From Anaerolineales bacterium (lineage in GTDB: Bacteria; Chloroflexota; Anaerolineae; Anaerolineales; UBA11579): a DNA stretch of 64,000 nucleotides. Under the pieces are notes generated by a model that was given only the letters and a program-made list of their open reading frames with translations, was not told the origin of the DNA and searched no databases. The DNA lies in NCBI GenBank assembly GCA_963675375.2, contig OY776212.2, positions 1,651,404 to 1,715,403 of the forward strand. The letters run 5' to 3'. The position numbers and the translations under genes are program-made. Below, piece by piece: positions 9,046-35,073 of this stretch (the first letter of the stretch is position 1; each line of letters opens with the position of its first letter).

Positions 9046-9085
9046 TGACAGAATGACCAGGACTTGATAGTATTTTTATACAACT

Positions 9086-9220
9086 GATCTCCGAAGTTTC
9101 TCGACCTAAGGCACTCGCTATGGTTGGGAAAACATCCCCTCTGGCGAGGAGCGGGTCTTGGATGGAAACATCTGGCCTCCCGACGTGCTGAATACGCAGC
9201 ACCGAATTGGAAAGGAGTAG
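9086..9220 (+). ncRNA. candidate molybdenum/tungsten cofactor (Moco/Wco) riboswitch aptamer
   Basis: Sequence blocks CUCCGA (9089-9094), GGCGAGGAG (9143-9151), GGCCUCCCGAC (9174-9184) and GGAAAGGAG (9209-9217) match my recollection of the Moco RNA motif. Local hairpins are ggga/tccc (9126-9138), gatg-GAAA-catc (9161-9172) and gtgctg/cagcac (9185-9202). CUCC at 9089 can pair with GGAG at 9214. Downstream genes are Mo/W-linked (FmdE, DUF364). Confidence 0.5.
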
Positions 9221-9248
9221 CTATACAAGGTATATTTACTATTCCATT

Positions 9249-19475: not shown

Positions 19476-19675
19476 CGCAAAAGAAAGCCTGCTAAATTTT
19501 TCCAAAGCGAATGTGGTAGATGAACGCTTTTAGAGATATTTATAAGATGGATTGTATTTGATTTGAGATTATTGTTATAATGTTCACAACGCGTCTATTG
19601 ACCGTAATTTTAAATCTGCCCTTATATAGGAAAACACGCCAATTATTATAAATTTACGCATTAGAAAATGCCTTT

Positions 19676-22372
19676 ATGAATAAATCTCCAGACATTATTA
19701 TTCCGACCAAACTCAGTCAGCCGCCTGTCAGGCAAAATTTGGTAGCCCGCCAGGAGATTTTTAAGCGGTTGTCAGAGGGAATTTCACGAAAACTGACCCT
19801 GGTTTCTGCCCCCGCGGGGTTTGGAAAAACTTCTTTAGTGAATGCCTGGCTGCAAATGCAGCTTGCGCCAGTTTCCTGGCTGTCGCTTGATAAACGCGAT
19901 AATGACCTCTCTCGCTTCCTGACATATCTGGAAACATCAATCAGTTCCTCCGTACCTCTGCGGTTCAGCAGCATATTAGAAAGTGAAGGCGGGTCGGACC
20001 AATTTGCCTCCGATTCTATGCTGAAAAATATTCTGGAAAAGCTGTCAAACCAATCCGATTTCAGAATCATTGTTCTAGATGATTATCACTTGATCACTTT
20101 GCCTGCTATTCACGAGGCAATGATCTTCCTGCTGAGCAATTTACCGCAGCCCGAAATGGATGGGAAAGTGCCTGTGCGCGGGTGTCATTTTATGATCATG
20201 ACCCGGTCAGACCCGCCGTTCCCGCTGGCGCGCTGGCGGGTGAGTGGAGAAGTGAATGAGGTTCGCACGGATGATTTACGCTTCTCCTTGGAAGAATCGG
20301 CGGAATTATTGAACCATAACCTCTCACTCGACCTTACCCTGGAAGATATTGCCGAGTTGAAATCTCGCGCCGAGGGGTGGGTGGCAGGGCTGCATCTGGC
20401 CGCGGTCTCCATGCAGGGGCAAGATGCCAAGTTTTGTCATCAATTTATCAACCAACTCAAAGGCAGTTATCGTTTACTGTCCGATTATCTGATCGAAGAA
20501 GTATTCTTACAGCAGCCGAAAAAGGTGCAGGATTTTTTGCTCAAATCCAGTATTCTGGAACGGATGAACGGCGAGCTGTGTGACGCAGTCTTAATGGATC
20601 ATGGCAGCAAAGTGATTTTAGAGTCATTAGACCGGCACAATGTTTTTGTAGTTCCGTTGGACCACGAGCGCCAGTGGTACCGGTATCATCATTTCTTCGC
20701 CGATGTACTCTCGGAGCGTTTTAAGGCATCGGAACAGGAAGATTTTGCCCTGCTGCATGCCCGTGCAGCTCAATGGCTGCAAGATCATGGGTTTATCGAA
20801 GGTAGTGTACATCATTGGTTGTTGGCAGGTGAAGAAGATCGTGCCGATAAGTTGGTGGTAGATGTTTCTACTAAACTACTGGATACCGGGAAATTTTACG
20901 AACTGCGTACCCTCGTGGAGCTTTTCCCGGAAGAAAGCTTTAAGGATCGTCCCTGGCTGTGTGTGCTGCGTGCTTGGGTTTGTTATTTCTACCAACCAGA
21001 TGAGATGGAAATGTGGTTGGTACAAGCAGAACGGATCATTGCCGAAAAGGAAGAAGATACCCAGGAAGTAAGAGAAATTCTCGGGCATGTAGCTGCACTG
21101 CGCTCGATTATACGGATCAACATGGGAAGATTAGAGGAAGCCCTGGGGATTGCTGCGGAAGGGATTGCGATCCTTCCAAAGAAAAACTTTAGTATCAGCG
21201 GCTTGCTGCTGAATGCCATGGGAATTATCTGGATGTTGAAGGGGGATTTCAAGAAATCCCTCGATTATTATATGCAGGCAAAAACCACCCTGCTGCAGGG
21301 CGGTAACTACACAGCGGCGGCCAGAGCTTTAGATCTGGCAGGCAACATTGAAGTGGAGCGGGGAAGTCTGCACCACGCGCTGAGCATCTATAAAGAAGGA
21401 TATTCCTTGTCGGGGGTGGGCAAGGTGATGTATGAGTGGAACCAGTTGGATGAAGCCTTGGAAGCCTTTGAAAGAGCGTATGATTACAGCAAACGAGACG
21501 GCATCGCGGTAGAGATTTCACGATGTGTCCCCCTGGCTCGCGCTTTGGTGGAACTGGGGAAAATGGAGAAAGCTAAAAAGTTCTTTGACCGCTATGCCGA
21601 GTATATCGGCTATTCCAGCCTGACCCCGTGGCTCGATTCGGAATTGGTCGCTTTCCAGATTGAATATTTATCTGCATTAGGTGATTTCCGGGCGGTCGAT
21701 TATCTGGCTTCTAACCGGGGAATTGTGCTGGATAAAGATTTTGAACCGGCCTTAGAGGCAGAATATACCGCTTATGCCTTCTCTTTCCTCAGGCGCGGTG
21801 ATCTTGATGAGGTGATGCGGACAGCGCCGGTGTTGGAACAACGCATGGCACAATGGGGGCTGACCGGCAGGCAGATCAACCTGCTGGCCATCCAGGCTGC
21901 TGCCTACCAACTGGCAGGCGAAACAGACACTGCCCAGACATTGATCGCCAAAGCACTTACGTTGGGCGCTGAAGAGGGGCATATCCGTACCTTTGTTGCC
22001 CTAGGAGAACCGGTCTTAGAAGTGATTGCCGGACTTTCCCAAAATGAATTTGAGCTAGATCGCGCTTATGTGCGCGAAGTGATTGCCGCCTTCCTGAACA
22101 GTCCCAGTGGGGGGACGCTCAGCAGTCCGGTCCACCATGAATATATGGGCGACCAACCGGATCAGCAAGGGGTGCTGATTGAGCCGCTGACTTCTCGCGA
22201 ATTAGAAGTGCTGCATTTGGTGGCGGCCGAACAAAATAACCAGGAAATTGCCGGTAAGTTAAATATTTCGATCAATACGGTCAAGACACATGTTTCGAAT
22301 ATCTTTACCAAGCTGGGGGTCAGCAACCGCCTACAGGCGGCTAACCGCGCACGTCAGTTAGATATTATCTAG
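19676..22372 (+). CDS. LAL-type regulator A (MalT-like ATPase + helical repeats + LuxR HTH)
   Basis: 898 aa. Walker A LVSAPAGFGKTSL, a long helical/TPR-like middle region, and a C-terminal LTSRELEVLHLVAAEQNNQEIAGKLNISINTVKTHVSNIFTKLGV. Confidence 0.85.
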   Translation: MNKSPDIIIPTKLSQPPVRQNLVARQEIFKRLSEGISRKLTLVSAPAGFGKTSLVNAWLQMQLAPVSWLSLDKRDNDLSRFLTYLETSISSSVPLRFSSILESEGGSDQFASDSMLKNILEKLSNQSDFRIIVLDDYHLITLPAIHEAMIFLLSNLPQPEMDGKVPVRGCHFMIMTRSDPPFPLARWRVSGEVNEVRTDDLRFSLEESAELLNHNLSLDLTLEDIAELKSRAEGWVAGLHLAAVSMQGQDAKFCHQFINQLKGSYRLLSDYLIEEVFLQQPKKVQDFLLKSSILERMNGELCDAVLMDHGSKVILESLDRHNVFVVPLDHERQWYRYHHFFADVLSERFKASEQEDFALLHARAAQWLQDHGFIEGSVHHWLLAGEEDRADKLVVDVSTKLLDTGKFYELRTLVELFPEESFKDRPWLCVLRAWVCYFYQPDEMEMWLVQAERIIAEKEEDTQEVREILGHVAALRSIIRINMGRLEEALGIAAEGIAILPKKNFSISGLLLNAMGIIWMLKGDFKKSLDYYMQAKTTLLQGGNYTAAARALDLAGNIEVERGSLHHALSIYKEGYSLSGVGKVMYEWNQLDEALEAFERAYDYSKRDGIAVEISRCVPLARALVELGKMEKAKKFFDRYAEYIGYSSLTPWLDSELVAFQIEYLSALGDFRAVDYLASNRGIVLDKDFEPALEAEYTAYAFSFLRRGDLDEVMRTAPVLEQRMAQWGLTGRQINLLAIQAAAYQLAGETDTAQTLIAKALTLGAEEGHIRTFVALGEPVLEVIAGLSQNEFELDRAYVREVIAAFLNSPSGGTLSSPVHHEYMGDQPDQQGVLIEPLTSRELEVLHLVAAEQNNQEIAGKLNISINTVKTHVSNIFTKLGVSNRLQAANRARQLDII

Positions 22373-22389: not shown

Positions 22390-22458
22390 AAATCATACCG
22401 GGGGGTGATGACATCTCACCCGAACTTTGTATAATGGCAATGTGTAAATTTTCACAAT
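22390..22458 (+). promoter_or_regulatory. conserved upstream element of cytochrome cassette A
   Basis: The 29-nt block aaatcataccggggggtgatgacatctca (22390-22418) is identical to 31189-31217. A second shared block, attttcacaat (22448-22458), matches 31249-31259. Confidence 0.55.
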
Positions 22459-22483: not shown

Positions 22484-23299
22484 ATGAAGAATAAACTACA
22501 TTCCCCCCACAAACTGCTGCTGTTGATGAGCCTGATCGCAGTATTGCTCGTTAGCGGTTGTTCATCTAATTCAGCAGTTCCATCTACTTACCAGCCTGAT
22601 CCCGCCGATGTAGACCTGGAAGGGTGGGCAGAAGCCTATCCCCAAATCTATGCGGACTGGGAATCTTCCATTCACGGTACTGCCTACTTGAGTGGAGATG
22701 AGAACGCCCCAACCTGTAACGACTGCCACGATGCCCCGGTTGAGGGTGAGGTGGTCAATACGGCCGAGTTTCATCTGCAAGTCCCCAACCGCTGTGCCCG
22801 CTGCCACAACGACGACGCACTGATGGCCGATTATGGGATTGCCGATGATGTGTACGAAACCTACCTAGCAGACTTCCACGGGACGACGATCCAGTATTAC
22901 GCGGAAAACGACCCGACTGCGCTGCGCGACGAAGCAGTGTGCAGTGACTGCCACGACAGCCACGCCGTTTACCCGCAGGACGATGAACGTTCCAGCGTAG
23001 CGGCGGTCAATTTACAAACTACCTGTGCCAAGTGCCATGCCGGTGCCAGCGAAGCTTTCACCAGTGCATACGGACACTACCGCCCGATCCAGGACCCGGT
23101 ATCAAAAGCCGATACCACCATCGTTTTCATTGTCAAACTGGCTTACCAGGCCCTGATCCCGATCACCCTGGGCGGTATGTTGGCCTACATCGGCCTGGAT
23201 ATCTTCTTCCGCATCAAGAAGAAAAACACCGCAGCCCCAGCGGAAGAAACCACGGAAACCCCCGAACCTGAGACAAACGAAAGTGAGGCGTCATCATGA
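22484..23299 (+). CDS. tetraheme c-type cytochrome lipoprotein with C-terminal membrane helix (module A)
   Basis: Lipobox LLVSGC, four CxxCH motifs (CNDCH, CARCH, CSDCH, CAKCH), and a hydrophobic C-terminal segment. The stop overlaps the next start (ATGA). Confidence 0.85.
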
Positions 23300-24500
23300 G
23301 CAGCGTTACGACAACTTCCCCCATTCAACAAGAAGAAACCCTCATTCGTTTCGACCTCAGCCAGCGCATTCAGCACATTGTGATGATGGTTTCTTTCATC
23401 ACCCTGGCGCTGACCGGCTTGCCGCAATCCTTTTCAGACGCCGGCTGGGCTAAAGCCTGGATGTCGCTGTTCGGGGGTATCGCCGGGGTGCGCAAGGTGC
23501 ACCATCTGGCAGCTGTATTGATGGTCTTTGTGTTCGTCTACCACTTCATTGTGGTGATCGGCGACCTATTCAAGAAAGACACCGGACGCTGGATGCTGCC
23601 GGTCAAGCAAGACCTGACCGATGCTTCCCATGCAGTCAAGTACCTGCTGGGCAAGGTAGACAGCCCCCCGCAGTACGGGCGTTTTGACTTCCGCCAGAAG
23701 CTGGAATACTGGGCCTTGATCTGGGGGACGATCCTGATGGGGATCACCGGGTTGGTGCTCATGTTCCCGGTGGCGTTTGCCAACTTTTTGCCGGGCGAGG
23801 TGATCTATGCCGCCAAAGCGGCGCATGGGTTAGAAGCTTTGCTTGCAGTGGCATCCATTGTCAGTTGGCACATGTACAATGCGCACTTTGCGCACGGTAT
23901 CTTCCCGATGGATAAGAGCATCTTCACCGGCAAGATCAGCGTGGAGCGCATGAAGGAAGAACACCCCTTGGAATACGAAGCCTTGATGTCTGCCCGAGCG
24001 GCGGAAGCACAGGCTGTTGAAGCAAGCGAACAGAGCGAAGTGGCAGAAACCACTTCGGATGAGAAATAGGGATTAGCCATGTCAAACAAACTAAAACTAA
24101 TCATCGCCATTGTGTTGGTGATCGTGATGATCCCGACCATGGGCAGTGTGTATGTCAAAGATAACCTGCACAGCAGCAACTACTGCGCCGGCTGCCACGA
24201 AGATCACTACACCACCTGGGCAGCACCGGAGAGTGAATACTCCCTGGCGCACCAGCATGCCGAAATGGGTGTCTCTTGCCAGAGCTGCCACCAGCGCACA
24301 ATGGGCGAGTCGGTCATGGAAGTGGTCAACTATGCGACGGGTAATTACTATTACCCCTTCCCGGAGATCGAATTGGGGATGGATACCTGCTTTGCCTGCC
24401 ACGGCAGCTATGCGGAGATCATCCCGCTGACCGATCCGTTGATCACGGGGGAAGAGCGCAACCCGCACGATGGACACTGGGGTGAGCTGGAATGCGGCAC
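22589..24500 (+). repeat. near-identical copy A of the three-gene cytochrome cassette
   Basis: Collinear with 31394-33239. By manual comparison, 22589-23218 differs from 31394-32023 at 7 positions in 630 nt. Only the gene termini and linkers diverge. Confidence 0.85.
23296..24069 (+). CDS. membrane b-type cytochrome, FdnI/PhsC/Ni-hydrogenase cytochrome b-like (module A)
   Basis: About four TM helices with candidate heme-ligand His residues ([29 protein letters not shown]). Confidence 0.75.
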
Positions 24501-24594
24501 ATGCCACAATGCGCACCGAGATTCTGTGGATTACTGCGCGGACTGCCACAACCCGGTCACCGATATGCCCGGATGGGTAAGCGGCACAAAGTAG
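24079..24594 (+). CDS. membrane-anchored small pentaheme c-type cytochrome (module A)
   Basis: An N-terminal TM helix LKLIIAIVLVIVMIPT and five CxxCH motifs (CAGCH, CQSCH, CFACH, CGTCH, CADCH) in 171 aa. Confidence 0.85.
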   Translation: MSNKLKLIIAIVLVIVMIPTMGSVYVKDNLHSSNYCAGCHEDHYTTWAAPESEYSLAHQHAEMGVSCQSCHQRTMGESVMEVVNYATGNYYYPFPEIELGMDTCFACHGSYAEIIPLTDPLITGEERNPHDGHWGELECGTCHNAHRDSVDYCADCHNPVTDMPGWVSGTK

Positions 24595-24713
24595 TATCTG
24601 AGGGGCGGTTCCCGATTGGAACCTGAAAATAGTTAGGAAATTAGAGATTAGGAAAGAATTAATATCTCTTGATACAAATTTTATAAAAATAAAGTAACGA
24701 AGGAGATTTAACA

Positions 24714-26333
24714 ATGAAGCAAGAAGAGTTCGACAAGAAAAATTTGTCCCGCCGAGAGTTTCTCAAGGGCGCAGGGGTAAGTGTAGCCGCATTGGCAGGT
24801 AGCAGTGTGCTGACCGGCTGCAAACCGAAAGCTGCCCCTGCAGAAGGCGAAGCAACCGATACCCCCGCGGCCGGTGGAACGTACTCATTCGAGACACCCC
24901 CGGAACCGATTGCGGACAAAGATATTACCGAAACCGTGACCGCCGACGTAGTTGTGGTTGGTGCCGGTGATGCCGGCCTGGCTGCCACTTTGGCTGCGGC
25001 CGAAGCGGGTGCAAGCGTTATTTTGCTCGAAAAGAGCGCGTCTTTCAACTCGCGCGGTTTTGGCAATGGTGCGCTGGATACCAAGTACCACAAAGAACAA
25101 GGCATTGAACTGGACAAAGGCGCCATCGTCAATGACCTGGTAGAGTTTGCCGGTGCAAAAGTGGACCAGGCAAAGATCGAGTTGTGGGCCGACCACAGCG
25201 GTGAAGTGTACGACCACCTGATCGATCTGGCAACCGAAGCTGAATTACCGATCATGCTGTTCCCCGCCGGACAAGACCCAGAAGCCCGCTACTTTGAATA
25301 TCCCACCTGTTTGGTCTTTGGTTCCACCATGCAGCAGGCCGACCTGCTGTCTGTGGTAGAAGCCGAAGCGATCAAGCAAGGCGCTGACATTCGCTACGAA
25401 ATGACTGCTCAGCAGTTGGTGCAGGAAGATGACGGCACGGTGAGCGGTGTGATCGTTACCAATGCTGCTGGTGAATATGTCAAGTTCGTGGGAGAGAAGG
25501 GCGTTATCCTGGCAACCGGTGACTATGGTCATAACGAAGAAATGATGGATAAGTGGTGTTCCTGGGCAAAGAACGTAGACATGAATGTGTACGTGCCCGC
25601 AGTGAACACCGGCGACGGCCACAAGATGGGTTTGTGGGCCGGCGGCCAGATGGAAATTGGCCCGCATGCACCCATGATCCACACCTTGGGCGGCGGTACC
25701 TTCTCCATGAACCCGGTGCTGCGCGTGAACGGCAAGGGCTTGCGCTACGAGAACGAAGACATCCCGAACCCCTATATCTGCAACAGCCGTCTGCGCCAAC
25801 CGGGCAACGTTGCTTACGCAATTTTTGACTCCAACTACGCAGAATATATCCCGAACACCATCCCCGGCTTTGCCCGCACCACGGCCGTCTCCGAAATGAC
25901 CGCCGAAACGCTGGCATCTGAAGTGGAAAGCGGCGCAGTGCTGAAAGCCGATACCCTGGAAGATTTGGCCGAGCAGATGGGTGTACCGGCAGACAACTTT
26001 GTTGCCACCGTAGAACGCTACACCGAGTTGGCCTTGGCCGGCGAGGACGAAGATTTCCATAAGAATCCCCGCATGATGGCTGCCATCAACCAGGCACCGT
26101 TCTATGCCTCCAAGGTATTCGCCGTACTGCTGGTCACCCTGGGCGGTTTCCGCACCAACACAGACCTGCAAGTTTTGGACGACAACTTTGATGTGATCCC
26201 CGGCCTGTACGCTGCTGGGAATGTCTCCGGCGGTTTCTACGCCAACGACTACCCGGTTTTGGCTGCCGGTCTGAGCCACGGCCGCTGCATCACCGAAGGG
26301 TACCTGGCAGGAAAGCACGCTGCCAACGCATAA
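24714..26333 (+). CDS. Tat-exported lipoprotein FAD-dependent oxidoreductase A1 (fumarate reductase/urocanate reductase/KstD flavoprotein class)
   Basis: Twin-arginine motif SRREFLKGAG, lipobox LTGC, dinucleotide fold DVVVVGAGDAGLAATLAAAEAGASVILLEK, and C-terminal GLYAAGNVSGG. Confidence 0.85.
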   Translation: MKQEEFDKKNLSRREFLKGAGVSVAALAGSSVLTGCKPKAAPAEGEATDTPAAGGTYSFETPPEPIADKDITETVTADVVVVGAGDAGLAATLAAAEAGASVILLEKSASFNSRGFGNGALDTKYHKEQGIELDKGAIVNDLVEFAGAKVDQAKIELWADHSGEVYDHLIDLATEAELPIMLFPAGQDPEARYFEYPTCLVFGSTMQQADLLSVVEAEAIKQGADIRYEMTAQQLVQEDDGTVSGVIVTNAAGEYVKFVGEKGVILATGDYGHNEEMMDKWCSWAKNVDMNVYVPAVNTGDGHKMGLWAGGQMEIGPHAPMIHTLGGGTFSMNPVLRVNGKGLRYENEDIPNPYICNSRLRQPGNVAYAIFDSNYAEYIPNTIPGFARTTAVSEMTAETLASEVESGAVLKADTLEDLAEQMGVPADNFVATVERYTELALAGEDEDFHKNPRMMAAINQAPFYASKVFAVLLVTLGGFRTNTDLQVLDDNFDVIPGLYAAGNVSGGFYANDYPVLAAGLSHGRCITEGYLAGKHAANA

Positions 26334-26605
26334 ATAAAACATACTGAAAGTGCTGCGAGCACTAACATTAACACTTTGACACAAGACAGTGCCCGGTACA
26401 TTGAGAAAAGAACGTGCCGGGCACTGTCGACAAAGCAGATGAGGGAAAAGGTAAGAGAGAGAAAATCTCCTGGAGAATGAAGAGGAATTATGACAATGGG
26501 GAAGGCCTGTTAACTATGGGTTGCTAAATGCTGTGTCAGGTTTAGCCTGGTATGATGCCAGGCTAAATTAAACGTTCAATCTTTTTACACAAGGAGAAAA
26601 AAAGA

Positions 26606-28213
26606 ATGAGTACAGAAGATAAGCACAAGAAAGACCTGTCCCGTCGAGAGTTTTTGAAGGGTGCAGGGCTCGGTGTGGCAGCGATCGCGGGAGGAAGCGT
26701 ACTCTCCGGCTGCAAACCGAAAGCAGCATCAGAGGGGGAAGCCGAGGAACAAGCATCAACTGGATTTTCATTTGAAACGCCGCCAGAGCCAATTGCAGAA
26801 AAAGAGATTACCGACACCGTTACCGCAGATGTAGTTGTGATTGGAGCCGGGGTTGCCGGCGTAATGGCGGCCATGTCAGCCGCGCAAGCCGGTGCCAGCA
26901 CCGTACTGCTCGAAAAATCTGAAACCTACAATGCCCGCGGCGGCCACAACGCTGCTTTGGGCAGCAAGCTGCAAAAAGCCAATGGGATTGATTACGACCC
27001 GAACGAAGTGATCAACGCCCTTGTTCGCTGGTCTGGACACAAAGTAGACCAACGCTTGCTGATGTTGTGGGCCAACAATGTGAATGAAACCATTGACCTG
27101 ATGATTGACATGGCTGAAGCAGAAGGCATGGAAGTGATCCTGTGGGGTAATGATGTGCCCGATGCCGCTTACCCGGAATACAAGACTGTGCACATGTTCG
27201 GCGGTATGGACGAGAAAAATGTGACCATGCTGTGTGAAAAAGCGTTCCTGGAGGCCGGCGGGGAAGTGTACTACTCAACCCCTGCTGCACAGCTGGAACG
27301 GGAAGACGGCGGCCGTGTCACCGGCGTGATCGCCGGCGAACCTGGCGCTTACACGCGCTTTGTTGCCAACAAGGGTGTGATCTTATGCACCGGCGACTAC
27401 GGCAATGACCCCGAGTTGGTTGCCCGTTACTGCCCCAAAGCTGCTGATGTAGACATGAATGTGTACGCACCGCAGGTTAACACCGGCGATGGGCACAAGA
27501 TGGGTATGTGGATTGGCGCCGCCATGCAAGAAGAAGACCCGGCCGCGACTGTGATGCATAACTTGGGTGCCTTGAGCCTGACTTCCAACCCCTTCTTGCG
27601 GGTGAACGGGGTGGGCGAACGCTACGAAAACGAAGATGTACCGCTTACCTACATGGTCAACAAGATCCAACTGCTGCCCGACAACACCGCCTATACTGTC
27701 TTCGACAGCACCTACGGCGACGAACTGGCCAACTTTACGCCCAGCTTTGCGCGTGTGACCGCCATGAGCGACAGTGTGCAGGAAGAACTGGATGCAGCTG
27801 TTGAAGCCGGCACGACCGTCTTCAAAGCCGATACAATCGAAGAATTGGCCGAAAAACTCAACGTCCCCGCCGCCAACCTTAAAGCCACTGTTGACCGCTA
27901 CAATGAACTGGCTGCCAATGGTGAGGATGTCGACTTCGGTAAAGACCCCAGCATCCTGACCCCGATTGATACTGCCCCGTTCTACGGCGCACGCATCACG
28001 GTTGCCCTCCTGGTGGTTTTGGGTGGTTTGAACACCAACACCAACCTGGAAGTGCTGGATACAGAAGGGAATGTGATCCCCGGTCTGTATGCTGCCGGCA
28101 ACACAGTGGGCAACTTCTTTGCCAACGATTATCCGGTCATCGTCCCCGGCCTGAGCCACAGCCGCGCTTTGGTATTCGGCCGCCTGGCCGGTCAGACCGC
28201 TGCAAACGCCTAA
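26606..28213 (+). CDS. Tat-exported lipoprotein FAD-dependent oxidoreductase A2 (paralog)
   Basis: SRREFLKGAG, lipobox LSGC, DVVVIGAGVAGVMAAMSAAQAGASTVLLEK and GLYAAGN. Clearly paralogous to A1 over its full length. Confidence 0.85.
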   Translation: MSTEDKHKKDLSRREFLKGAGLGVAAIAGGSVLSGCKPKAASEGEAEEQASTGFSFETPPEPIAEKEITDTVTADVVVIGAGVAGVMAAMSAAQAGASTVLLEKSETYNARGGHNAALGSKLQKANGIDYDPNEVINALVRWSGHKVDQRLLMLWANNVNETIDLMIDMAEAEGMEVILWGNDVPDAAYPEYKTVHMFGGMDEKNVTMLCEKAFLEAGGEVYYSTPAAQLEREDGGRVTGVIAGEPGAYTRFVANKGVILCTGDYGNDPELVARYCPKAADVDMNVYAPQVNTGDGHKMGMWIGAAMQEEDPAATVMHNLGALSLTSNPFLRVNGVGERYENEDVPLTYMVNKIQLLPDNTAYTVFDSTYGDELANFTPSFARVTAMSDSVQEELDAAVEAGTTVFKADTIEELAEKLNVPAANLKATVDRYNELAANGEDVDFGKDPSILTPIDTAPFYGARITVALLVVLGGLNTNTNLEVLDTEGNVIPGLYAAGNTVGNFFANDYPVIVPGLSHSRALVFGRLAGQTAANA

Positions 28214-28392: not shown

Positions 28393-31161
28393 ATGCTGAA
28401 CAGATTTCCGGATATGATTATTCCCACCAAGTTGAATCAGCCGCTTGTCAGGGCGGACTTGGTGACGCGCACCAATTTGGATGAACGCTTGCGCGAAGGG
28501 CTGACAAAAAAACTGACCCTTGTATCTGCCCCGGCCGGATTTGGTAAGACAACCCTGATCTCGGCCTGGCTGAACCATTTACCTTATCAGGCTTCCTGGT
28601 TATCGTTAGATCAACGGGATAACAATTTTTCTCGTTTCCTGGCTTACTTGGAGATTTCGTTAAATCCTTTCCGGTCAAACAAAGAATGTTTGTACGAAAA
28701 CTTCACGTCTGCCGACCACCAATATACCGAACAGTTTCTTGAGAAAGCCCTGCAGAAGATGGCAAACCAACGGCCTTTCCGCCTGTTGGTGCTGGACGAT
28801 TACCATTTAATCACCAATCAAAAGGTACACAATACCCTCGTCTTCCTGCTCAACAATCTTCCCTTGCCCGATCCTTCTTTCAAGGGCGGAGGGAAAGGGT
28901 GTCATGTGGTGTTGCTCACTCGCTCAGATCCGCCTTTCCCGGTGGCGCGCTGGCGGGTGCATCATCAGGTCAACGAGATTAGAACGGATGACCTGCGCTT
29001 TTCTTTGGAAGAAACTGCCCAACTTTTCAATCATTCGATGCAGTTAGGGCTTTCTTTAGAAGATGTCGCCGAATTGAAATCGCGTGCCGAGGGGTGGGTG
29101 GCCGGTTTGCAGCTGGCCGGGGTTTCCCTGCAGGGTCAAAAACCGCGCAACCACCATCATTTCATCAGCCAGATCAAGGGGAGTTACCGCCTGCTGGCCG
29201 ACTTTTTGATCGAAGAAGTCTACTTACAGCAAACGCCGGAGATCCAAGATTTCCTCCTGAAGACCAGTATTTTAGATCGGATGAACGGCGAGTTGTGCGA
29301 TGCATTGCTGCAAAGTTTTGGCGGGAACAAAATCCTGACTTTTTTAGAGCGCAACAATGTCTTTGTAGTCCCATTAGACCACGACCGTCATTGGTACCGC
29401 TATCATCACTTTTTTGCCGAGGTGCTTGCCGACCGCCTGAAAGCGATCCAGGATGAAGAGTATAAACAACTCCATATCCGAGCGGCGCAGTGGCTGGAAG
29501 AACATGAATTTATAGAAGATAGTGTGCGCCACTGGCTGCAAGCCAAAGACTACCAACATGCCTCTAGCCTGATCGTCAGGACGGCCTCTAAATTGTTGGA
29601 TCAGGGTAAGTTTTATATTCTGCGCAGCCTGGTGGAATTGTTCCCCGAAGAATCCTTCCAGCGGTCTCCCTGGTTGAGCATTTACCGCTCCTGGACTTGT
29701 TTTATGCTGGAACCTGCTGAAATGGAGACCTGGTTGATGTCCTCTGAACGGGTGATTGACAGCATGATCGAGGAAGGCGAGACGGATACGGATGAGATCA
29801 ATGAAATGCTGGGCAATATTGCCGCTATCCGCGCTCTGGCAGCCGTGCGGCAGGGAGATTTGGAAAAGACCCTGTCGTTAGCGCCTTATGCCCTGGCACT
29901 TCTGCCTGAAAAAGCGATCAAAGTGCGCGGCCTGGTGTTCAACGCCATCGGCACCAGCTGTATGTTGAAAGGCGAGCAGGAGAAAGCGCTGGAGCATTTC
30001 ATGGAAGCCAAAACCATCCTGCGCAAGGGCGGTAATTTTGGCGGGTCGGCAGATGCGCTCAGTTTTGCCGGAGAAATTCAGCTGGACCGGGGAGAGCTGC
30101 GTCTTGCTTTAGACACCTTCAAAGAAGCCATTTCGTTGGAGAAGTACCATTCCGGCGGGGAACCTTGTTATGTCAGCCAGGCGTATAGTGGGGTGGGGCA
30201 AATTTTGTTTGAGTGGAATCAACTGGATGAGGCATTTTGGAACTTCCAAAACGGCTATCAATACAGCGGGCGGATGGGGGTTTCTAACCAGATTTCTTGT
30301 GCCATCCCGATGGTGGCAGCCTGGTTGGAGTTGGGCCAATTGGATAAAGCCGAAGAAGTCTTGAGCCAGTACAGCGGGTATATTGGGCATACTTCGCTCA
30401 CCCCGTGGGTAGACTCGCGGCTGGTTGCCACCCAAATCCATTTTCTGGCTGCTCAAGCAGATTTTCGCGAGATCGACCATTTGATCCGCTACCGGGGAAT
30501 CGATTTAGGGGAACATTTTACCCTGACGCGGGAACCGGAATACACCGCGGTAGCGCTGTCTTACTTGATGCGCGGCAATATGAAACAGGCGGTCAACCTC
30601 TCGACGCGCCTGGAGGGACGCGTGGGGGCATTGGGCAGCACAGGCCGTCAAATCCGGCTGTTGGCGATCTTGGCGGCTTCTCTCAGTTTGCTCGGCCAGC
30701 AAAAGGCCGCACTGAAAAAGGTTGCCAGAGCTTTCAAACTGGCAGGCAGCGAAGGGTTTATCCGCAGCTTTGTGGCTATGGGGGAACCGATGCTGTCTCT
30801 GATTGCCGAATTAGCCGATTCGGAATTTGTGGAAACTTACCGGCTCGACAAGGCTTACCTGGGCGAGGTGGTGTCTGCTTTCATCGCTGGCGAAGATGGC
30901 AGTGCCTTTTACAACCCGCTGCGTACCGAACCAGCCCGCGCGATGGGGAATATGCCGGGACTAATTATGGAGCCATTGACCGAACGCGAGTTGGAAGTTT
31001 TGCAGCTGCTTGCCGCCGAGAAAAACAACCGAGAAATTGCCAGCCGGTTGAGCATTTCGATCAATACGGTCAAGACGCATATCGCCAATATTTACAGCAA
31101 GCTGGGGGTCAGCAACCGGTTACAGGCCGCTAACCGGGTTCGGCAGCTTAAAATTTTCTAA
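28393..31161 (+). CDS. LAL-type regulator B (paralog of regulator A)
   Basis: 922 aa. Walker A LVSAPAGFGKTTL and a C-terminal LuxR HTH (LTERELEVLQLLAAEKNNREIASRLSISINTVKTHIANIYSKLGV). Collinear with regulator A but heavily substituted. Confidence 0.85.
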   Translation: MLNRFPDMIIPTKLNQPLVRADLVTRTNLDERLREGLTKKLTLVSAPAGFGKTTLISAWLNHLPYQASWLSLDQRDNNFSRFLAYLEISLNPFRSNKECLYENFTSADHQYTEQFLEKALQKMANQRPFRLLVLDDYHLITNQKVHNTLVFLLNNLPLPDPSFKGGGKGCHVVLLTRSDPPFPVARWRVHHQVNEIRTDDLRFSLEETAQLFNHSMQLGLSLEDVAELKSRAEGWVAGLQLAGVSLQGQKPRNHHHFISQIKGSYRLLADFLIEEVYLQQTPEIQDFLLKTSILDRMNGELCDALLQSFGGNKILTFLERNNVFVVPLDHDRHWYRYHHFFAEVLADRLKAIQDEEYKQLHIRAAQWLEEHEFIEDSVRHWLQAKDYQHASSLIVRTASKLLDQGKFYILRSLVELFPEESFQRSPWLSIYRSWTCFMLEPAEMETWLMSSERVIDSMIEEGETDTDEINEMLGNIAAIRALAAVRQGDLEKTLSLAPYALALLPEKAIKVRGLVFNAIGTSCMLKGEQEKALEHFMEAKTILRKGGNFGGSADALSFAGEIQLDRGELRLALDTFKEAISLEKYHSGGEPCYVSQAYSGVGQILFEWNQLDEAFWNFQNGYQYSGRMGVSNQISCAIPMVAAWLELGQLDKAEEVLSQYSGYIGHTSLTPWVDSRLVATQIHFLAAQADFREIDHLIRYRGIDLGEHFTLTREPEYTAVALSYLMRGNMKQAVNLSTRLEGRVGALGSTGRQIRLLAILAASLSLLGQQKAALKKVARAFKLAGSEGFIRSFVAMGEPMLSLIAELADSEFVETYRLDKAYLGEVVSAFIAGEDGSAFYNPLRTEPARAMGNMPGLIMEPLTERELEVLQLLAAEKNNREIASRLSISINTVKTHIANIYSKLGVSNRLQAANRVRQLKIF

Positions 31162-31188: not shown

Positions 31189-31259
31189 CAAATCATACCG
31201 GGGGGTGATGACATCTCATCCTGCTTATCCGTATGCTAAGAATGTGGATATTTTCACAA
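31189..31259 (+). promoter_or_regulatory. conserved upstream element of cytochrome cassette B
   Basis: The same 29-nt block and the same attttcacaat block as in 22390-22458. Confidence 0.55.
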
Positions 31260-31285
31260 TCTGAATACATTTAACCAAGGAAAAT

Positions 31286-32083
31286 ATGAGAAGAAAAAGA
31301 CAAAAATATTCGATAGGCCCGGTACGTACGCTCTGTATCTGGGTCTTGCTGCTCGCCAGCGGATGTTCTAGTGTTGGCGATCTGGCGGTTGCATACCAGC
31401 CTGATCCCGCCGATGTAGACCTGGAAGGGTGGGCAGAAGCCTATCCCCAAATCTATGCGGACTGGGAATCTTCCATTCACGGTACTGCCTACCTGAGTGG
31501 AGATGAGAACGCCCCGACCTGTAATGACTGCCACGATGCCCCGGTTGAGGGTGAGGTGGTCAATACGGCCGAGTTTCATCTGCAAGTCCCCAACCGCTGT
31601 GCCCGCTGCCACAACGACGACGCACTGATGGCCGAGTATGGGATTGCTGATGATGTGTACGAAACCTACCTGGCAGACTTCCACGGGACGACGATCCAGT
31701 ATTACGCGGAAAACGACCCGACTGCGCTGCGCGACGAAGCAGTGTGCAGTGACTGCCACGACAGCCACGCCGTTTACCCGCAGGACGATGAACGTTCCAG
31801 CGTAGCGGCGGTCAATTTACAAACTACCTGTGCCAAGTGCCATGCCGGTGCCAGCGAAGCTTTCACCAGTGCATACGGACACTACCGCCCGATCCAGGAC
31901 CCGGTATCAAAAGCCGATACCACCATCGTTTTCATTGTCAAACTGGCTTACCAGGCCCTGATCCCGATCACCCTGGGCGGTATGTTGGCCTACATCGGCC
32001 TGGACATCTTCTTCCGCATCAAGCGCAAGAACGCCAAGCAAAACACCGAACCCGAAACTGACGAAAGCGAGGCGCAGTCATGA
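31286..32083 (+). CDS. tetraheme c-type cytochrome lipoprotein (module B)
   Basis: Lipobox LLASGC and four CxxCH. The conserved core (YQPD...FFRIK) differs from copy A at one residue (D to E); the signal peptide and C-terminal tail differ. Confidence 0.85.
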
Positions 32084-33239
32084 CCCATTCAACTTCCACA
32101 CCAATGCCGCAGGAAGAAACCATGATCCGTTTCGACCTCAGCCAGCGCATTCAGCACATTGTGATGATGGTTTCCTTCATCACCCTGGCGCTGACCGGCT
32201 TGCCGCAATCCTTTTCAGACGCCGGCTGGGCCAAAGCCTGGATGTCGCTGTTCGGGGGTATCGCCGGGGTGCGCAAGGTGCACCATCTGGCAGCTGTATT
32301 GATGATCTTCGTGTTCGTCTACCACTTCATTGTGGTGATCGGTGACCTGTTCAAGAAAGACACCGGACGCTGGATGCTGCCGGTCAAGCAAGACCTGACC
32401 GATGCTTCCCATGCGGTCAAATACCTGCTGGGCAAAGTGGACAGCCCCCCGCAGTACGGGCGTTTTGACTTCCGCCAGAAGCTGGAATATTGGGCCTTGA
32501 TCTGGGGGACGATCCTGATGGGGATCACCGGGTTGGTGTTGATGTTCCCGGTGGCGTTTGCCAACTTTTTGCCGGGCGAGGTGATCTATGCCGCCAAAGC
32601 AGCGCATGGGTTGGAAGCACTCCTGGCAGTGGCATCCATTGTCAGCTGGCACATGTACAATGCGCACTTTGCGCACGGTATCTTCCCGATGGATAAGAGC
32701 ATCTTCACCGGCAAGATCAGCGTAGAGCGCATGAAGGAAGAACATCCTTTGGAATACGAAGCCTTGATGGCGGCACAGACGACAGCCCGCACCGAAACAG
32801 AAGAATAGGAGCCAGCCATGTCAAACAAACTAAAACTAATCATCGCCATTGTGTTGGTGATCGTGATGATCCCGACCATGGGCAGTGTGTATGTCAAAGA
32901 CAGCTTGCACAGCACCAATTACTGTGCCGGCTGCCACGAAGATCACTACACCACCTGGGCAGCACCGGAGAGTGAATACTCCCTGGCGCACCAGCATGCC
33001 GAAATGGGTGTCTCTTGCCAGAGCTGCCACCAGCGCACAATGGGTGAGTCGGTCATGGAAGTGGTCAACTATACCACCGGTAATTACTATTACCCCTTCC
33101 CGGAGATCGAATTGGGGATGGATACCTGTTTTGCCTGCCACGGCAGCTATGCGGAGATCATCCCGCTGACCGATCCGTTGATCACGGGGGAAGAGCGCAA
33201 TCCGCACGATGGACACTGGGGTGAGCTGGAATGCGGCAC
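31394..33239 (+). repeat. near-identical copy B of the three-gene cytochrome cassette
   Basis: Partner of 22589-24500. Confidence 0.85.
32080..32808 (+). CDS. membrane b-type cytochrome (module B)
   Basis: Nearly identical to 23296-24069 except at the extreme N- and C-termini. ATGA overlap with the upstream gene. Confidence 0.75.
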
Positions 33240-33333
33240 GTGCCATAAAATGCACCGCGACTCGATTGATTACTGCGCCAGCTGCCATAACTCGGTCACC
33301 GATGCGCCGGGGTGGACGAAGCCAAGCCCATAG
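32818..33333 (+). CDS. membrane-anchored small pentaheme c-type cytochrome (module B)
   Basis: Five CxxCH motifs. Differs from copy A at a few residues, mostly in the last 35 aa. Confidence 0.85.
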   Translation: MSNKLKLIIAIVLVIVMIPTMGSVYVKDSLHSTNYCAGCHEDHYTTWAAPESEYSLAHQHAEMGVSCQSCHQRTMGESVMEVVNYTTGNYYYPFPEIELGMDTCFACHGSYAEIIPLTDPLITGEERNPHDGHWGELECGTCHKMHRDSIDYCASCHNSVTDAPGWTKPSP

Positions 33334-33438
33334 GGTATGACCGCGATTTAAGTAAGCAAGGAAAATGAAGAGTTTTCTGGGAAAGTTTTATTCCCTCAAA
33401 CTCGGAGTGAATAATCAAAAGTTCAAGGAGAAAAAAGA

Positions 33439-35073
33439 ATGAGTACAGAAGAAAAAAACAAGAAAATGCTGTCTCGCCGTGAATTCCTCAAAGGAGCCGG
33501 CATCAGCGTGGCTGCTATCGCTGGCAGCAGTGTGTTGTCCGGCTGCAAGCCAAAAACCGCACCGGCAGAAGATGCCGCTGCGGATGGCGCAGTAGAAAGC
33601 GGCGCAGCATCCTATTCGTTTGAAACCCCGCCAGACCCGATTGCCAAAAAAGACATCAAAGACACCAAATCGGCAGACGTAGTTGTGTTGGGCGCAGGAA
33701 TTTCTGGCCTGTGCGCAGCCTATGCAGCCGCCGAAAAGGGCGCCAGCGTGATCGTTTTGGAGAAGCGTGAAACCTTTACTTTCCACGGGATGGACAACGG
33801 TGTGATCGGCGACCGCCTGCATAAAGCCGAAGGTTTGGATGTGCCCAAAGACCAGGCGATGGCCGATATTATGCGCTTCGGCGGCTACCGCCAGAACCCC
33901 CGCGTGGTGTCCTTGTGGGCCAATGAGAGCGGCCGGGTGATGGATCGCTTGTTGGATATGGCCGATGAGGCTGGCTTTACTTACATCGTGGATAATGATG
34001 TCAAAGAGCATTTCCCCTACAAAGAATTTGCCACTTCCATCCAATTCCAACCGGCTCGCCAGGCTACCCTGGTACCGATGCTGGAAGGCAATGTGCGCGG
34101 CATGGGCGTCGAAATTTTATACGATACCCCCGCACGTCAGCTGCTGCGTGGCGATGATGGTAAGGTGACCGGTGTGGTCGCCGAAACCGAAGACGGCTAC
34201 CTCCAGGTAGATGCCAGCAAGGGCGTGATCATCTGCACCGGCGGGTACGGCAGCAACCAGGAAATGCTGGCGAAGTATGCCCCCCGCGCTACCAAGATCG
34301 TTAACAACCAATACGCTGAACAGAGCAATACCGGCGACGGTATCTTGATGGGGATGTGGGTTGGCGGCGCCAAGCAGGAAAGCTCCTGCCCGATGTTGTG
34401 GGACGGACATATCCCTGGGATTGGCGGCATGCATATGACCCTTGCCCGCCAGCCGTGGCTGTATGTGAATGTTTTGGGCGAACGCTATGCCAACGAAGAT
34501 GCTCCCTTTGGCTACACAGCCAACCAGGACATCATGCAGCCGACCAGCATGAAGTGGGCGGTGTGGGATGCCAAATGGGAAACCGATGTGCACCAGCTGC
34601 ATGGTACGGTTTGTGAAGCAATGCGCCCGCCGTTCTGGACAGAAGATAGTTACCAGGACTATATGGACAGAGGCGTGATTGTGGAAGCCGACACCCTGGA
34701 AGAACTGGCCGAGGTGATGGAAGTGCCGGTAGACGCCTTGATGGCGACGGTTGCCCGCTACAACGAACTCTACGAGATGGGTGAGGATGTAGACTTTGGG
34801 AAAGACCCCGCCAAACTGACCTCGATTGTAGAAGGTCCCTTCGGTGCTGCCAAAGTCGGCGCCGGGATTTTGGTCACAGTCGATGGCCTGCGCATCAACA
34901 CCGATCTGCAAGTGTTGGACACGGAAGGACAACCGATCCCTGGCTTGTACGCCGCCGGGAATGCCTCTGGTGACTTCTTTGCCCAAGACTACCCGATTGA
35001 CCTGCACGGCCTCAGCCACGGGCGTGCCCTCACCTTTGGCTGGTTAGCCGGAGAAAAGGCTGCGGAAGCATAA
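33439..35073 (+). CDS. Tat-exported lipoprotein FAD-dependent oxidoreductase B (divergent paralog)
   Basis: SRREFLKGAG, lipobox LSGC, DVVVLGAGISGLCAAYAAAEKGASVIVLEK and GLYAAGNASGD. More diverged from A1 and A2 than they are from each other. Confidence 0.85.
   Translation: MSTEEKNKKMLSRREFLKGAGISVAAIAGSSVLSGCKPKTAPAEDAAADGAVESGAASYSFETPPDPIAKKDIKDTKSADVVVLGAGISGLCAAYAAAEKGASVIVLEKRETFTFHGMDNGVIGDRLHKAEGLDVPKDQAMADIMRFGGYRQNPRVVSLWANESGRVMDRLLDMADEAGFTYIVDNDVKEHFPYKEFATSIQFQPARQATLVPMLEGNVRGMGVEILYDTPARQLLRGDDGKVTGVVAETEDGYLQVDASKGVIICTGGYGSNQEMLAKYAPRATKIVNNQYAEQSNTGDGILMGMWVGGAKQESSCPMLWDGHIPGIGGMHMTLARQPWLYVNVLGERYANEDAPFGYTANQDIMQPTSMKWAVWDAKWETDVHQLHGTVCEAMRPPFWTEDSYQDYMDRGVIVEADTLEELAEVMEVPVDALMATVARYNELYEMGEDVDFGKDPAKLTSIVEGPFGAAKVGAGILVTVDGLRINTDLQVLDTEGQPIPGLYAAGNASGDFFAQDYPIDLHGLSHGRALTFGWLAGEKAAEA

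What the first reader, a model, noticed from the sequence alone, without database searches (positions are those of the whole stretch)
22390..22458. Identical 29-nt element plus a second shared block between each LAL gene and its cytochrome cassette
- The block aaatcataccggggggtgatgacatctca occurs at 22390-22418 and, identically, at 31189-31217.
- These positions are 18 and 28 nt after the two LAL stop codons. The surrounding intergenic sequence is otherwise dissimilar.
- A second shared block, (a)atgtg.a.attttcacaat, lies 20-23 nt further on (22448-22458 and 31249-31259).
- The first block contains an imperfect inverted repeat (tcatacc-gggg-ggtgatga). It could be a protein-binding site for the LuxR-type HTH proteins or a short RNA hairpin.
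- Conservation inside diverged spacers argues for function as a promoter or operator of the cassette.
- The G-rich GGTGATGA core is only loosely reminiscent of MalT boxes.
Basis: seen in the sequence. Interest (0 to 1): 0.6.

Follow-up and report, generated by a model that had tools for sequence, protein, structure and literature searches.

The report
MalT-type operator plus Rex box promoter
The repeated 29-base element is most likely the docking site for the neighbouring MalT-like (LAL) activators, built into the promoters of two respiratory reductase operons, and the second shared block looks like a site for the redox-sensing repressor Rex. It is a well-supported but fairly ordinary promoter design.

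Summary
It lies in spacers that are otherwise 40-60% alike, about 170 nt upstream of the gene-conversion tract.

Box 1:
- It reads as a MalT-type palindrome, TCATAC-N4-GGGTGA.
- Its right arm runs into a weak -35 (ATGACA), followed after 16-18 nt by TATAAT or TATGCT.
- The same module occurs only twice more in the 4.87-Mb genome, before two enoate-reductase-like genes on the second replicon.
- A diverged form (TCATCC-N4-GGATGA) follows a third LAL gene and its ortholog in another genus.
- It matches published MalT sites in sequence and in predicted position.

Block 2 (nGTGn-N6-TCACAAT):
- It lies at about +1 to +16.
- It fits the Rex operator TTGTGAA-N4-TTCACAA at 12 of 14 positions.
- The genome has a rex gene, and similar boxes sit before other reductase and redox genes.

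An RNA hairpin, a terminator and a passive duplication remnant are not supported. No transcription or binding data could be obtained. Verdict: a new member of a known kind, of moderate interest.

The parts
19676..22372 (+). lalA: MalT-family (LAL/STAND) regulator, 898 aa, with a C-terminal LuxR/GerE HTH
   Evidence: Pfam TPR_MalT 1.3e-41, GerE 5.8e-19, weak AAA_16. The N-terminal 420 aa match the E. coli MalT structure 8bob at 1.3e-49.
22390..22418 (+). Box 1, copy 1 (the 29-mer). Left arm TCATAC 22393-22398, spacer CGGG 22399-22402, right arm GGGTGA 22403-22408, -35 ATGACA 22408-22413.
   Evidence: Layout shared with the C2, LAL3 and G017 copies.
22430..22435 (+). -10 hexamer TATAAT, 16 nt after the -35. 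Predicted transcription start about 22442 (inferred, not measured).
   Evidence: The promoter scan scores 11 of 12.
22440..22457 (+). Block 2, copy 1: Rex-operator-like box ATGTGTAAATTTTCACAA, 12/14 to TTGTGAA-N4-TTCACAA, at about +1 to +16
   Evidence: Consensus from PMC2883068. A rex gene is present.
22484..28213 (+). Cassette A: multihaem cytochrome c lipoprotein, cytochrome b561, cytochrome c3, and two Tat-exported FAD flavoenzymes (24714-26333, 26606-28213)
   Evidence: Pfam.
28393..31161 (+). lalB: MalT-family regulator, 922 aa, about 53% identical to lalA, with the same recognition-helix motif ISINTVKTH
   Evidence: Pfam TPR_MalT 6.7e-53, GerE 3.7e-19. tblastn and C-terminal sequences.
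31190..31218 (+). Box 1, copy 2 (identical 29-mer). TCATAC 31193-31198, GGGTGA 31203-31208, -35 ATGACA 31208-31213.
31232..31237 (+). -10 hexamer TATGCT, 18 nt after the -35. Predicted start about 31244 (inferred).
31242..31259 (+). Block 2, copy 2: Rex-operator-like box ATGTGGATATTTTCACAA (12/14)
31286..35073 (+). Cassette B: the same three cytochromes plus one Tat-type FAD flavoenzyme (33439-35073)
   Evidence: Pfam.
19572..19589 (+). Further Rex-like box, TTGTTATAATGTTCACAA, 86 nt upstream of lalA. It contains a TATAAT.

Best explanation
Each LAL-to-cassette spacer holds one activator-dependent sigma-70-type promoter under two controls.

Box 1 is the operator of the MalT-family activators LalA and LalB. 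It is an imperfect palindrome, TCATAC-N4-GGGTGA, preceded by a G-run. Its right arm abuts and overlaps a suboptimal -35 (ATGACA). The ligand-activated, oligomerised LAL would bind there and recruit RNA polymerase, as MalT does at its promoter-proximal box.

Block 2 (nGTGn-N6-TCACAAT) lies just after the -10, across the predicted start site. It is most likely an operator for the NADH/NAD+-sensing repressor Rex, so the reductase operons would be released only when reducing equivalents accumulate.

LalA and LalB share the same recognition helix, and the operator is identical or nearly so at four promoters: two cytochrome/flavoenzyme cassettes and two enoate-reductase-like genes on the second replicon. 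These four probably form one joint regulon.

Shown here: the sequences, their architecture, their rarity, their recurrence and conservation, and the presence of the regulator genes.
Inferred: the start sites, who binds what, and the direction of regulation.
For: 1. Promoter:
- ATGACA-16-TATAAT scores 11/12, and ATGACA-18-TATGCT scores 9/12.
- There is no terminator between the LAL gene and the cassette.

2. Recurrence:
- The 23-nt core occurs exactly four times in 4.87 Mb.
- The two C2 copies keep box 1, the -10 and block 2 in register, while everything between differs.
- Their single difference within the core falls in the N4 spacer.

3. Paralog and ortholog:
- Downstream of a third LAL gene (C1:962686-965406) the module reads GTCATCATCC-ATTT-GGATGATGACATCTCATCC...TATTAT...TAGTGAAATTTATCACTA.
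- In another genus (G017, L063) it reads TCATCC-GAAA-GGATGAcGACATCTCACCC...TAATAT...TAGTGAAACATTTCAC.
- That module is conserved in an otherwise indel-ridden spacer.

4. Published match (PMC7567727):
- E. coli MalT boxes are GGGGA(T/G)GAGG with core GGA(T/G)GA, lying over the -35.
- The Actinoplanes MalT motif is TCATCC-N5-GGATGA, ending 34.4 +/- 1 nt before the start site.
- Here GGGTGA ends 34-36 nt before the predicted start.

5. Specificity:
- A GGG run upstream of the -35 is rare in this genome's promoter-like sites (10 of 214), and T rather than A precedes TGACA in 74%.
- Across LAL loci of the bacterial family, a G-rich box fused to the -35 goes with the NT[VI][KR]xH helix type. KGH-type LALs have a different motif.

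6. Regulators:
- LalA and LalB are true MalT relatives and share ISINTVKTH.

7. Rex:
- There is one rex gene, matching solved Rex proteins at 8e-54.
- 44 sites lie within 2 mismatches of the Rex consensus, against 13 in the reversed-sequence control.
- About 30 of them are intergenic, although only about 11% of the genome is. They lie before NfnAB-like genes, ADP-forming acetyl-CoA synthetase, another Tat flavoenzyme, a Mo-oxidoreductase, lalA and the third LAL gene.

8. Not a conversion tract: identity is 40-60% on both sides, and the 97-100% tract starts at about 22590.
Against: - There is no transcription start, expression or binding evidence.
- The window's own arms are only 5/6 to the MalT core, and the spacing is 4 nt against 5 nt in Actinoplanes.
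- No ortholog of lalA, lalB or their cassettes was found in relatives or metagenomes. Conservation of this exact box therefore rests on paralogs within one genome.
- The four copies descend from one ancestral block. A remnant of an LAL 3' end precedes the C2 copies. They are not independent inventions.
- Identity over all 29 positions exceeds what a degenerate operator needs, so some homogenisation by conversion cannot be excluded.
- The left half of block 2 is degenerate. The genome also has a few CRP/FNR-like HTH proteins that could bind a GTG-N8-CAC site.
- GGGTGATGACA also heads a promoter that has no adjacent LAL gene (9040-9050).
Confidence: 0.68

Rival explanations
1. Box 1 and block 2 are passive leftovers of the duplication, or short gene-conversion patches copied between the two modules. 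They have no regulatory role.
For: Identity at 29 of 29 positions is more than an operator needs. All copies share ancestry.
Against: - The box is separated from the conversion tract by about 170 nt of 40-60% identity, and is flanked by dissimilar sequence on both sides.
- The same blocks, and only they, survive in the C2 copies, which precede unrelated genes.
- They also survive in the LAL3/G017 pair across genera.
- The blocks coincide with a -35, a -10 and two known operator consensuses.
Confidence: 0.07
2. Box 1 acts as RNA. It would be a hairpin (UCAUACC-GGGG-GGUGAUGA) in read-through transcripts from the LAL gene, serving as a terminator, processing site or attenuator.
For: - There is an inverted repeat with a 4-nt loop.
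- The C-to-T change in the C2 copies would keep a G-U pair.
- The paralogs have perfect 8-10 bp inverted repeats.
- No terminator separates the LAL gene from the cassette, so read-through is possible.
Against: - The minimum-free-energy folds do not use that hairpin and are no more stable than shuffles (z -0.02 and +0.35).
- No T-run follows.
- There is no Rfam match; the best is a chance 12-bit hit.
- The half-site sequences themselves are conserved (TCATCC/GGATGA). That is expected for protein recognition and not for a stem.
- The right arm is fused to a -35 at a fixed distance from a -10.
Confidence: 0.05
3. Box 1 is a real operator, but for a regulator other than LalA/LalB: another LAL paralog such as the one at C1:1638761-1641502, or an unrelated factor. 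The LAL genes are merely neighbours.
For: - Two of the four copies have no adjacent LAL gene.
- GGGTGATGACA also occurs at the Moco-riboswitch promoter (9040-9050) and at C1:1648226, and GGGGGTGATGA lies downstream of another LAL gene.
- The genome has nine LAL paralogs.
Against: - Only lalA, lalB and the third LAL share the NT[VI]KTH helix together with the full palindrome plus GACATCTCA.
- The C2 copies carry a decayed LAL 3' end next to an IS element, so they once had their own LAL gene.
- The motif and its position equal those of MalT-family sites.
Confidence: 0.12
4. Block 2 is not a Rex site. It would be bound by a CRP/FNR-family protein (TGTGA-N6-TCACA-like), or be a conserved 5'-UTR or initial-transcribed element.
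For: - GTG-N8-CAC also fits the CRP consensus.
- The left half-site is degenerate.
- The genome has a few HTH_Crp_2 matches (best 41 bits).
- The 5'-UTR copies can form a small hairpin.
Against: - The invariant half TTCACAA is the exact Rex half-site (PMC2883068).
- A clear rex gene exists.
- Similar boxes lie before typical redox and energy genes.
- A position at +1 to +16 cannot activate.
- UTR folds are not significant (z -0.4 and -1.1).
Confidence: 0.25

Closest known systems
MalT boxes of the E. coli / Klebsiella maltose regulon
   Same: - A G-rich box with core GGA(T/G)GA lies over the -35 of an activator-dependent promoter and is recognised by a STAND/LAL protein with a LuxR-type HTH (as summarised in PMC7567727).
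- Here GG-GGGTGA-TG sits at the same predicted place.
- The regulators match the MalT nucleotide-binding domain (8bob, 1.3e-49) and Pfam TPR_MalT.
   Different: - The core is GGGTGA (5/6) in the window copies.
- The boxes are arranged as an inverted pair with a 4-nt gap. E. coli has a proximal box plus upstream direct repeats.
- The target genes are respiratory reductases, not maltodextrin genes.
- The inducers are unknown.
- The phylum is different, probably Anaerolineae.
MalT-like regulon of Actinoplanes sp. SE50/110 (PMC7567727)
   Same: A palindrome of MalT half-sites, TCATCC-N5-GGATGA, overlaps the -35 of 17 mapped promoters and ends 34.4 +/- 1 nt before the start site. The third LAL locus here and its G017 ortholog carry TCATCC-N4-GGATGA. 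The window copies carry TCATAC-N4-GGGTGA, ending 34-36 nt before the predicted start.
   Different: - The spacer is 4 nt, not 5.
- There are only four or five promoters, not 17.
- A second, Rex-like operator is added.
- There are no experimental start sites or mutants here.
Rex operators (ROP) of Gram-positive bacteria, e.g. S. aureus TTGTGAAW4TTCACAA (PMC2883068)
   Same: An 18-bp inverted repeat with an exact TTCACAA half-site lies in the core promoter of genes that dispose of reducing equivalents. A Rex homolog is encoded in the genome.
   Different: The left half is degenerate (ATGTGTA, ATGTGGA). No binding or NADH response has been shown. The combination with a MalT-type activator site at respiratory reductase operons has, to my knowledge, not been described.
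Substrate-induced respiratory flavin or molybdopterin reductases with adjacent LuxR-type regulators in gut bacteria (Eggerthella cgr operon, PMC5953540; bioRxiv 10.1101/2022.12.26.521950). These were seen only as titles and abstracts; the comparison rests on my own knowledge.
   Same: Expanded families of Tat-exported flavin reductases, each next to its own regulator gene.
   Different: Different phylum, different regulator architecture (full MalT-type STAND proteins here), and no operator comparison was made.

Membership tests
MalT-type operator (MalT box) | Core hexamer GGA(T/G)GA, flanked by G residues | tested here: inconclusive
   - The window copies have GG-GGGTGA-TG (5/6 to the core, with G flanks on the 5' side) and a left arm TCATAC (5/6 to TCATCC).
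- The paralogous LAL3 promoter and the G017 ortholog have exact GGATGA and TCATCC.
- Consensus taken from PMC7567727.
MalT-type operator (MalT box) | Promoter-proximal box overlapping the -35, ending about 34-35 nt before the start site | tested here: inconclusive
   GGGTGA ends at 22408 and 31208. The -10 hexamers at 22430-22435 and 31232-31237 predict starts near 22442 and 31244, which is 34-36 nt. The start sites are predicted, not measured.
MalT-type operator (MalT box) | Bound by, and dependent on, a MalT-family activator | not testable with these tools
   Only indirect evidence: adjacency to lalA/lalB, a shared recognition helix, and the correlation between helix type and box type across loci.
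LAL / MalT (STAND) regulators (for lalA, lalB) | N-terminal nucleotide-binding oligomerisation domain, TPR-like sensor region, C-terminal LuxR/GerE HTH | tested here: met
   TPR_MalT 1.3e-41 and 6.7e-53; GerE about 1e-19; AAA_16 below the cut-off. lalA residues 8-427 match the MalT structure 8bob at 1.3e-49.
Rex operator (ROP) | Inverted repeat TTGTGAA-N4-TTCACAA | tested here: met
   12/14 in both window copies, with an exact right half. 11-12/14 in the C2, LAL3 and G017 copies. Consensus from PMC2883068.
Rex operator (ROP) | A rex gene in the genome and a regulon of redox or energy genes carrying the box | tested here: met
   - One Rex homolog (PF06971 72 bits; 8e-54 to 5zz5).
- 44 against 13 sites at up to 2 mismatches, about 30 of them intergenic.
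- They lie before NfnAB-like genes, ACS(ADP), flavoenzyme, Mo-enzyme, SDR and LAL genes.
Rex operator (ROP) | Rex binding that is relieved by NADH | not testable with these tools
   Needs EMSA or in-vivo data.
Intrinsic terminator / structured cis-RNA | Stable stem followed by a T-run, or a match to a curated RNA family | tested here: not met
   No terminator-like site. Fold z-scores -0.02 and +0.35. No Rfam match above chance.

The most novel reading that the evidence does not exclude
Two LAL sensors that have diverged to about 53% identity, and so presumably bind different ligands, keep the same recognition helix. They converge on one strictly identical operator at four promoters. The organism would then run an OR-gate regulon: either signal, gated by Rex, switches on both interchangeable, conversion-homogenised cytochrome modules together with four different terminal reductases. 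The second-replicon genes lost their own LAL gene to an IS event and are held in the regulon in trans. The operator identity may itself be maintained by concerted evolution.
Probability: 0.25. Interest if true: 0.5.

Novelty: new member of a known kind. Interest (0 to 1): 0.35.

Why it matters
It gives a concrete, testable wiring diagram for respiratory-type reductase operons in a poorly studied, probably Anaerolineae, bacterium. In that diagram a substrate-sensing MalT-like activator is placed at the -35 and a redox-state repressor at the start site. It defines a small regulon that links two cytochrome/flavoenzyme cassettes with two enoate-reductase-like genes on another replicon. It also extends the MalT-box logic known from Proteobacteria and Actinobacteria to a third phylum. 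It does not reveal a new kind of mechanism.

Tried and rejected
Searches for the box elsewhere:
- Exact core in the representative genomes: 0 hits.
- Core with up to 3 mismatches in 40 relatives: 8 hits, all inside long ORFs, so chance.
- Degenerate palindrome in 200 genomes of the order: many hits, but all 30 inspected are coding (ATC-ATC...GAT-GAT-GAC codon runs), so uninformative.
- Metagenome scan: 3 hits. Two are coding. One lies in an unrelated AT-rich mobile-element context, with a GGGGGG-TGATGA-CCCCCC hairpin.

Searches for orthologous modules:
- The cytochrome gave only relatives at 42% identity or less.
- lalB gave none in the representative-genome collection and only paralog-level matches of 30-37% in the family.

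RNA readings:
- Rfam on the window, the spacer and the C2 leaders gave nothing relevant.
- RNA folds of box 1 and of the 5' UTR are not significant.

Other:
- The 290-nt C2 leader is not a decayed cytochrome 5' end; local alignments are no better than shuffles.
- A G-run before the -35 is not a general promoter feature of this genome.

Full report
**Observation.** The 29-mer AAATCATACCGGGGGGTGATGACATCTCA is present without mismatch at 22390-22418 and at 31190-31218. No shuffle of the window gives even one match at up to 3 mismatches. The box begins 17 nt after the stop codon of the ORF at 19676-22372 and 28 nt after that of the ORF at 28393-31161. The second block, aatgtgNaNattttcacaat, is at 22439-22458 and 31241-31260. 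A pairwise identity profile shows:
- about 70-87% identity in the last 150 nt of the two regulator genes;
- 40-60% in the rest of the spacer and in the signal-peptide part of the first cassette gene;
- 97-100% only from about 22590 onwards.

The box is therefore an island.

**The genes.**
- Both upstream ORFs are MalT-family STAND regulators. They match Pfam TPR_MalT and GerE, and the N-terminal 420 residues match the E. coli MalT structure 8bob at 1.3e-49.
- They are about 53% identical overall and share the HTH motif ISINTVKTH.
- The ORF at 16722-19475 is a PAS/HisKA_3 kinase, not an LAL.
- Each box precedes a cassette: a multihaem cytochrome c lipoprotein, a cytochrome b561, a cytochrome c3 and Tat-exported FAD flavoenzymes.
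- The genome has two contigs, 4.43 Mb and 446 kb, at 50% G+C. The closest AraA relatives are Anaerolineales MAGs at 68% identity, so the organism is probably an Anaerolineae. This placement is inferred, not proven.

**Anatomy.** The consensus scan finds ATGACA-16 nt-TATAAT (11 of 12) at 22408-22435 and ATGACA-18 nt-TATGCT (9 of 12) at 31208-31237. It finds no terminator-like site between regulator and cassette. The -35 lies inside the 29-mer. Block 2 begins 4 nt after the -10, at about +1 to +16 of the predicted transcript.

**Recurrence in the genome.** The 23-nt core AAATCATACYGGGGGGTGATGAC occurs four times in the 4.87 Mb and nowhere else. The other two copies are on contig C2, 312313-312335 and 315085-315107, minus strand.
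- They precede two tandem 757-aa genes of the OYE plus pyridine-nucleotide-disulphide-oxidoreductase type, which is enoate or 2,4-dienoyl-CoA reductase-like.
- In a four-way alignment only box 1, the -10 (TATAAT) and block 2 (GTG...ATTTCACAAT) are conserved and in register. All else differs.
- The only difference within the core, C to T, falls in what turns out to be the spacer of the palindrome.
- The roughly 50 nt upstream of the C2 copies resemble the 3' end of lalA (local score 16.5 against 7.4 +/- 1.2 for shuffles, 0 of 2000). A transposase gene lies just upstream.
- So the C2 promoters descend from an LAL-promoter junction whose LAL gene was lost. The copies are paralogous footprints, not independent inventions.

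**A diverged paralog and an ortholog.** Downstream of a third LAL gene (C1:962686-965406, 32-34% identical to lalA/lalB) and before another Tat flavoenzyme gene, the spacer reads tatGTCATCATCCatttGGATGATGACATCTCATCCatccttttgaTATTATcaaaataaaTAGTGAAATTTATCACTAg. The best LAL match outside this genome lies in another genus of the same family (G017, locus L063). There the orthologous spacer reads TCATCCgaaaGGATGAcGACATCTCACCCatcctattgaTAATAT...TAGTGAAACATTTCAC. The module is conserved while the rest of the spacer is full of indels. Aligning on the -35 gives GG[A/G]TGA-[T/C]-GACATCTCA[C/T]CC in all of W1, W2, LAL3 and G017. Box 1 of the window is therefore TCATAC-CGGG-GGGTGA, with each arm one base away from TCATCC...GGATGA.

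**Comparison with known operators.** PMC7567727 reports that:
- E. coli and Klebsiella MalT boxes are GGGGA(T/G)GAGG with core GGA(T/G)GA, and overlap the -35;
- a MalT-like regulator of Actinoplanes uses TCATCC-5 nt-GGATGA over the -35 of 17 mapped promoters, ending 34.4 +/- 1 nt before the start.

Here GGGTGA ends 34-36 nt before the start predicted from the -10.

**Is the G-rich -35 specific?**
- Among 214 intergenic TGAC[AT]-N16-18-TAnnnT sites of this genome, the base before TGAC is T in 74% and A in 13%.
- G is depleted upstream, and only 10 sites have a GGG run. Four of those ten are the copies discussed here.
- Across LAL loci of the bacterial family, regulators with an NT[VI][KR]xH recognition helix are followed by promoters such as GGGGTATGACA, GGGTGATGACC or GGTGGATGACA.
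- Regulators with a ...KGH helix are followed by a different motif, AACACTTAAGTGT.

This co-variation of helix type and box type is the best available indirect evidence that the LAL proteins are the binders.

**Block 2.** All copies fit nGTGn-N6-TCACn. The window copies match the Rex operator TTGTGAA-N4-TTCACAA (S. aureus consensus, PMC2883068) at 12 of 14 positions, with an exact right half.
- The genome has one rex gene (PF06971 72 bits; 8e-54 to solved Rex proteins).
- Genome-wide there are 44 sites within 2 mismatches, against 13 in the reversed sequence.
- About 30 are intergenic by a crude ORF-based mask, although only about 11% of the genome is intergenic.
- They lie before NfnAB-like genes, ADP-forming acetyl-CoA synthetase, another Tat flavoenzyme (two boxes), a Tat molybdo-enzyme and an SDR. 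They also lie before lalA (19572-19589), the third LAL gene and the gene after a further LAL.
- A position across the start site suits a repressor.
- A CRP/FNR-type binder cannot be excluded.

**Rivals.**
- RNA hairpin or terminator: folds are no better than shuffles (z -0.02 and +0.35), there is no T-run, and there is no Rfam match.
- Passive remnant or conversion patch: contradicted by the island pattern and by the C2 and cross-genus footprints. Even so, identity over all 29 positions is more than an operator needs, so some homogenisation may contribute.
- Another regulator: possible, since GGGTGATGACA also heads the promoter of the Moco riboswitch (9040-9050) and one at C1:1648226, and nine LAL paralogs exist.

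**Limits.**
- No orthologs of lalA, lalB or their cassettes were found.
- The broader pattern searches returned only coding matches.

**Verdict.** The best model is a MalT-type class-II-like activator site fused to a weak -35, plus a Rex-like operator over the start site, shared by four reductase promoters. This is a new member of a known kind and of moderate interest.

Noticed in passing
L005 (G000 contig C2:300001-320000) 12266-12335 and 15040-15107, minus strand: Two further copies of the whole promoter module precede tandem 757-aa OYE/Pyr_redox_2 (enoate-reductase-like) genes. The ~50 nt upstream resemble the 3' end of lalA (z about 7.6). A transposase (rve) gene lies at L005 15622-16482, which suggests an IS-mediated loss of a former LAL gene.
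   Followed up: partly
L005 11970-12266 and 14754-15040, minus strand: About 290-nt leaders lie between the promoter module and the enoate-reductase-like start codons. They are 86% identical to each other, have no conserved ORF (the frames differ) and no Rfam match. They may be an unrecognised cis-regulatory RNA.
   Followed up: partly
window 8994-9073: The promoter just upstream of the Moco riboswitch (9077-9233) has the same G-rich -35, GGGTGATGACA (9040-9050), then 17 nt and TAGTAT. A second GGGTGA lies 46 nt upstream. No LAL gene is adjacent.
   Followed up: partly
window 19572-19589; also genome C1:962504-962521: Rex-like boxes lie upstream of lalA (TTGTTATAATGTTCACAA, containing a TATAAT) and of the third LAL gene (TTGTGTAAATTGTCACAA). 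Regulator and target operon may therefore both be under Rex control.
   Followed up: no
loci L067, L069-L073, L076, L077, L080, L090 (LAL loci of the same bacterial family): Many LAL genes of other subfamilies are followed by a small ORF beginning like M..Y.I.I.G.L...W.DWF. Some have a different palindromic motif (AACACTTAAGTGT) in the spacer. This looks like a separate, uncharacterised LAL-target pairing.
   Followed up: no
G015:C1:11572-21688: Three LAL genes lie in tandem in a related genus. The own genome has nine LAL paralogs, so the family is strongly expanded in this lineage.
   Followed up: no
genome C1:3613769-3613828: Two adjacent Rex-like boxes (TTGTACATTTCTTCACAA and TTGTACAAATTTTCACAA) lie before another Tat-exported FAD flavoenzyme gene (C1:3613920-3615758). 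No MalT-type box is present.
   Followed up: no
window 22414-22422 and 31214-31222: The first part of the promoter spacer, TCTCACCC / TCTCATCC, is also conserved in the LAL3 and G017 promoters. In three of the four it contains TCATCC or TCACCC, an inverted third MalT-like half-site inside the spacer.
   Followed up: no
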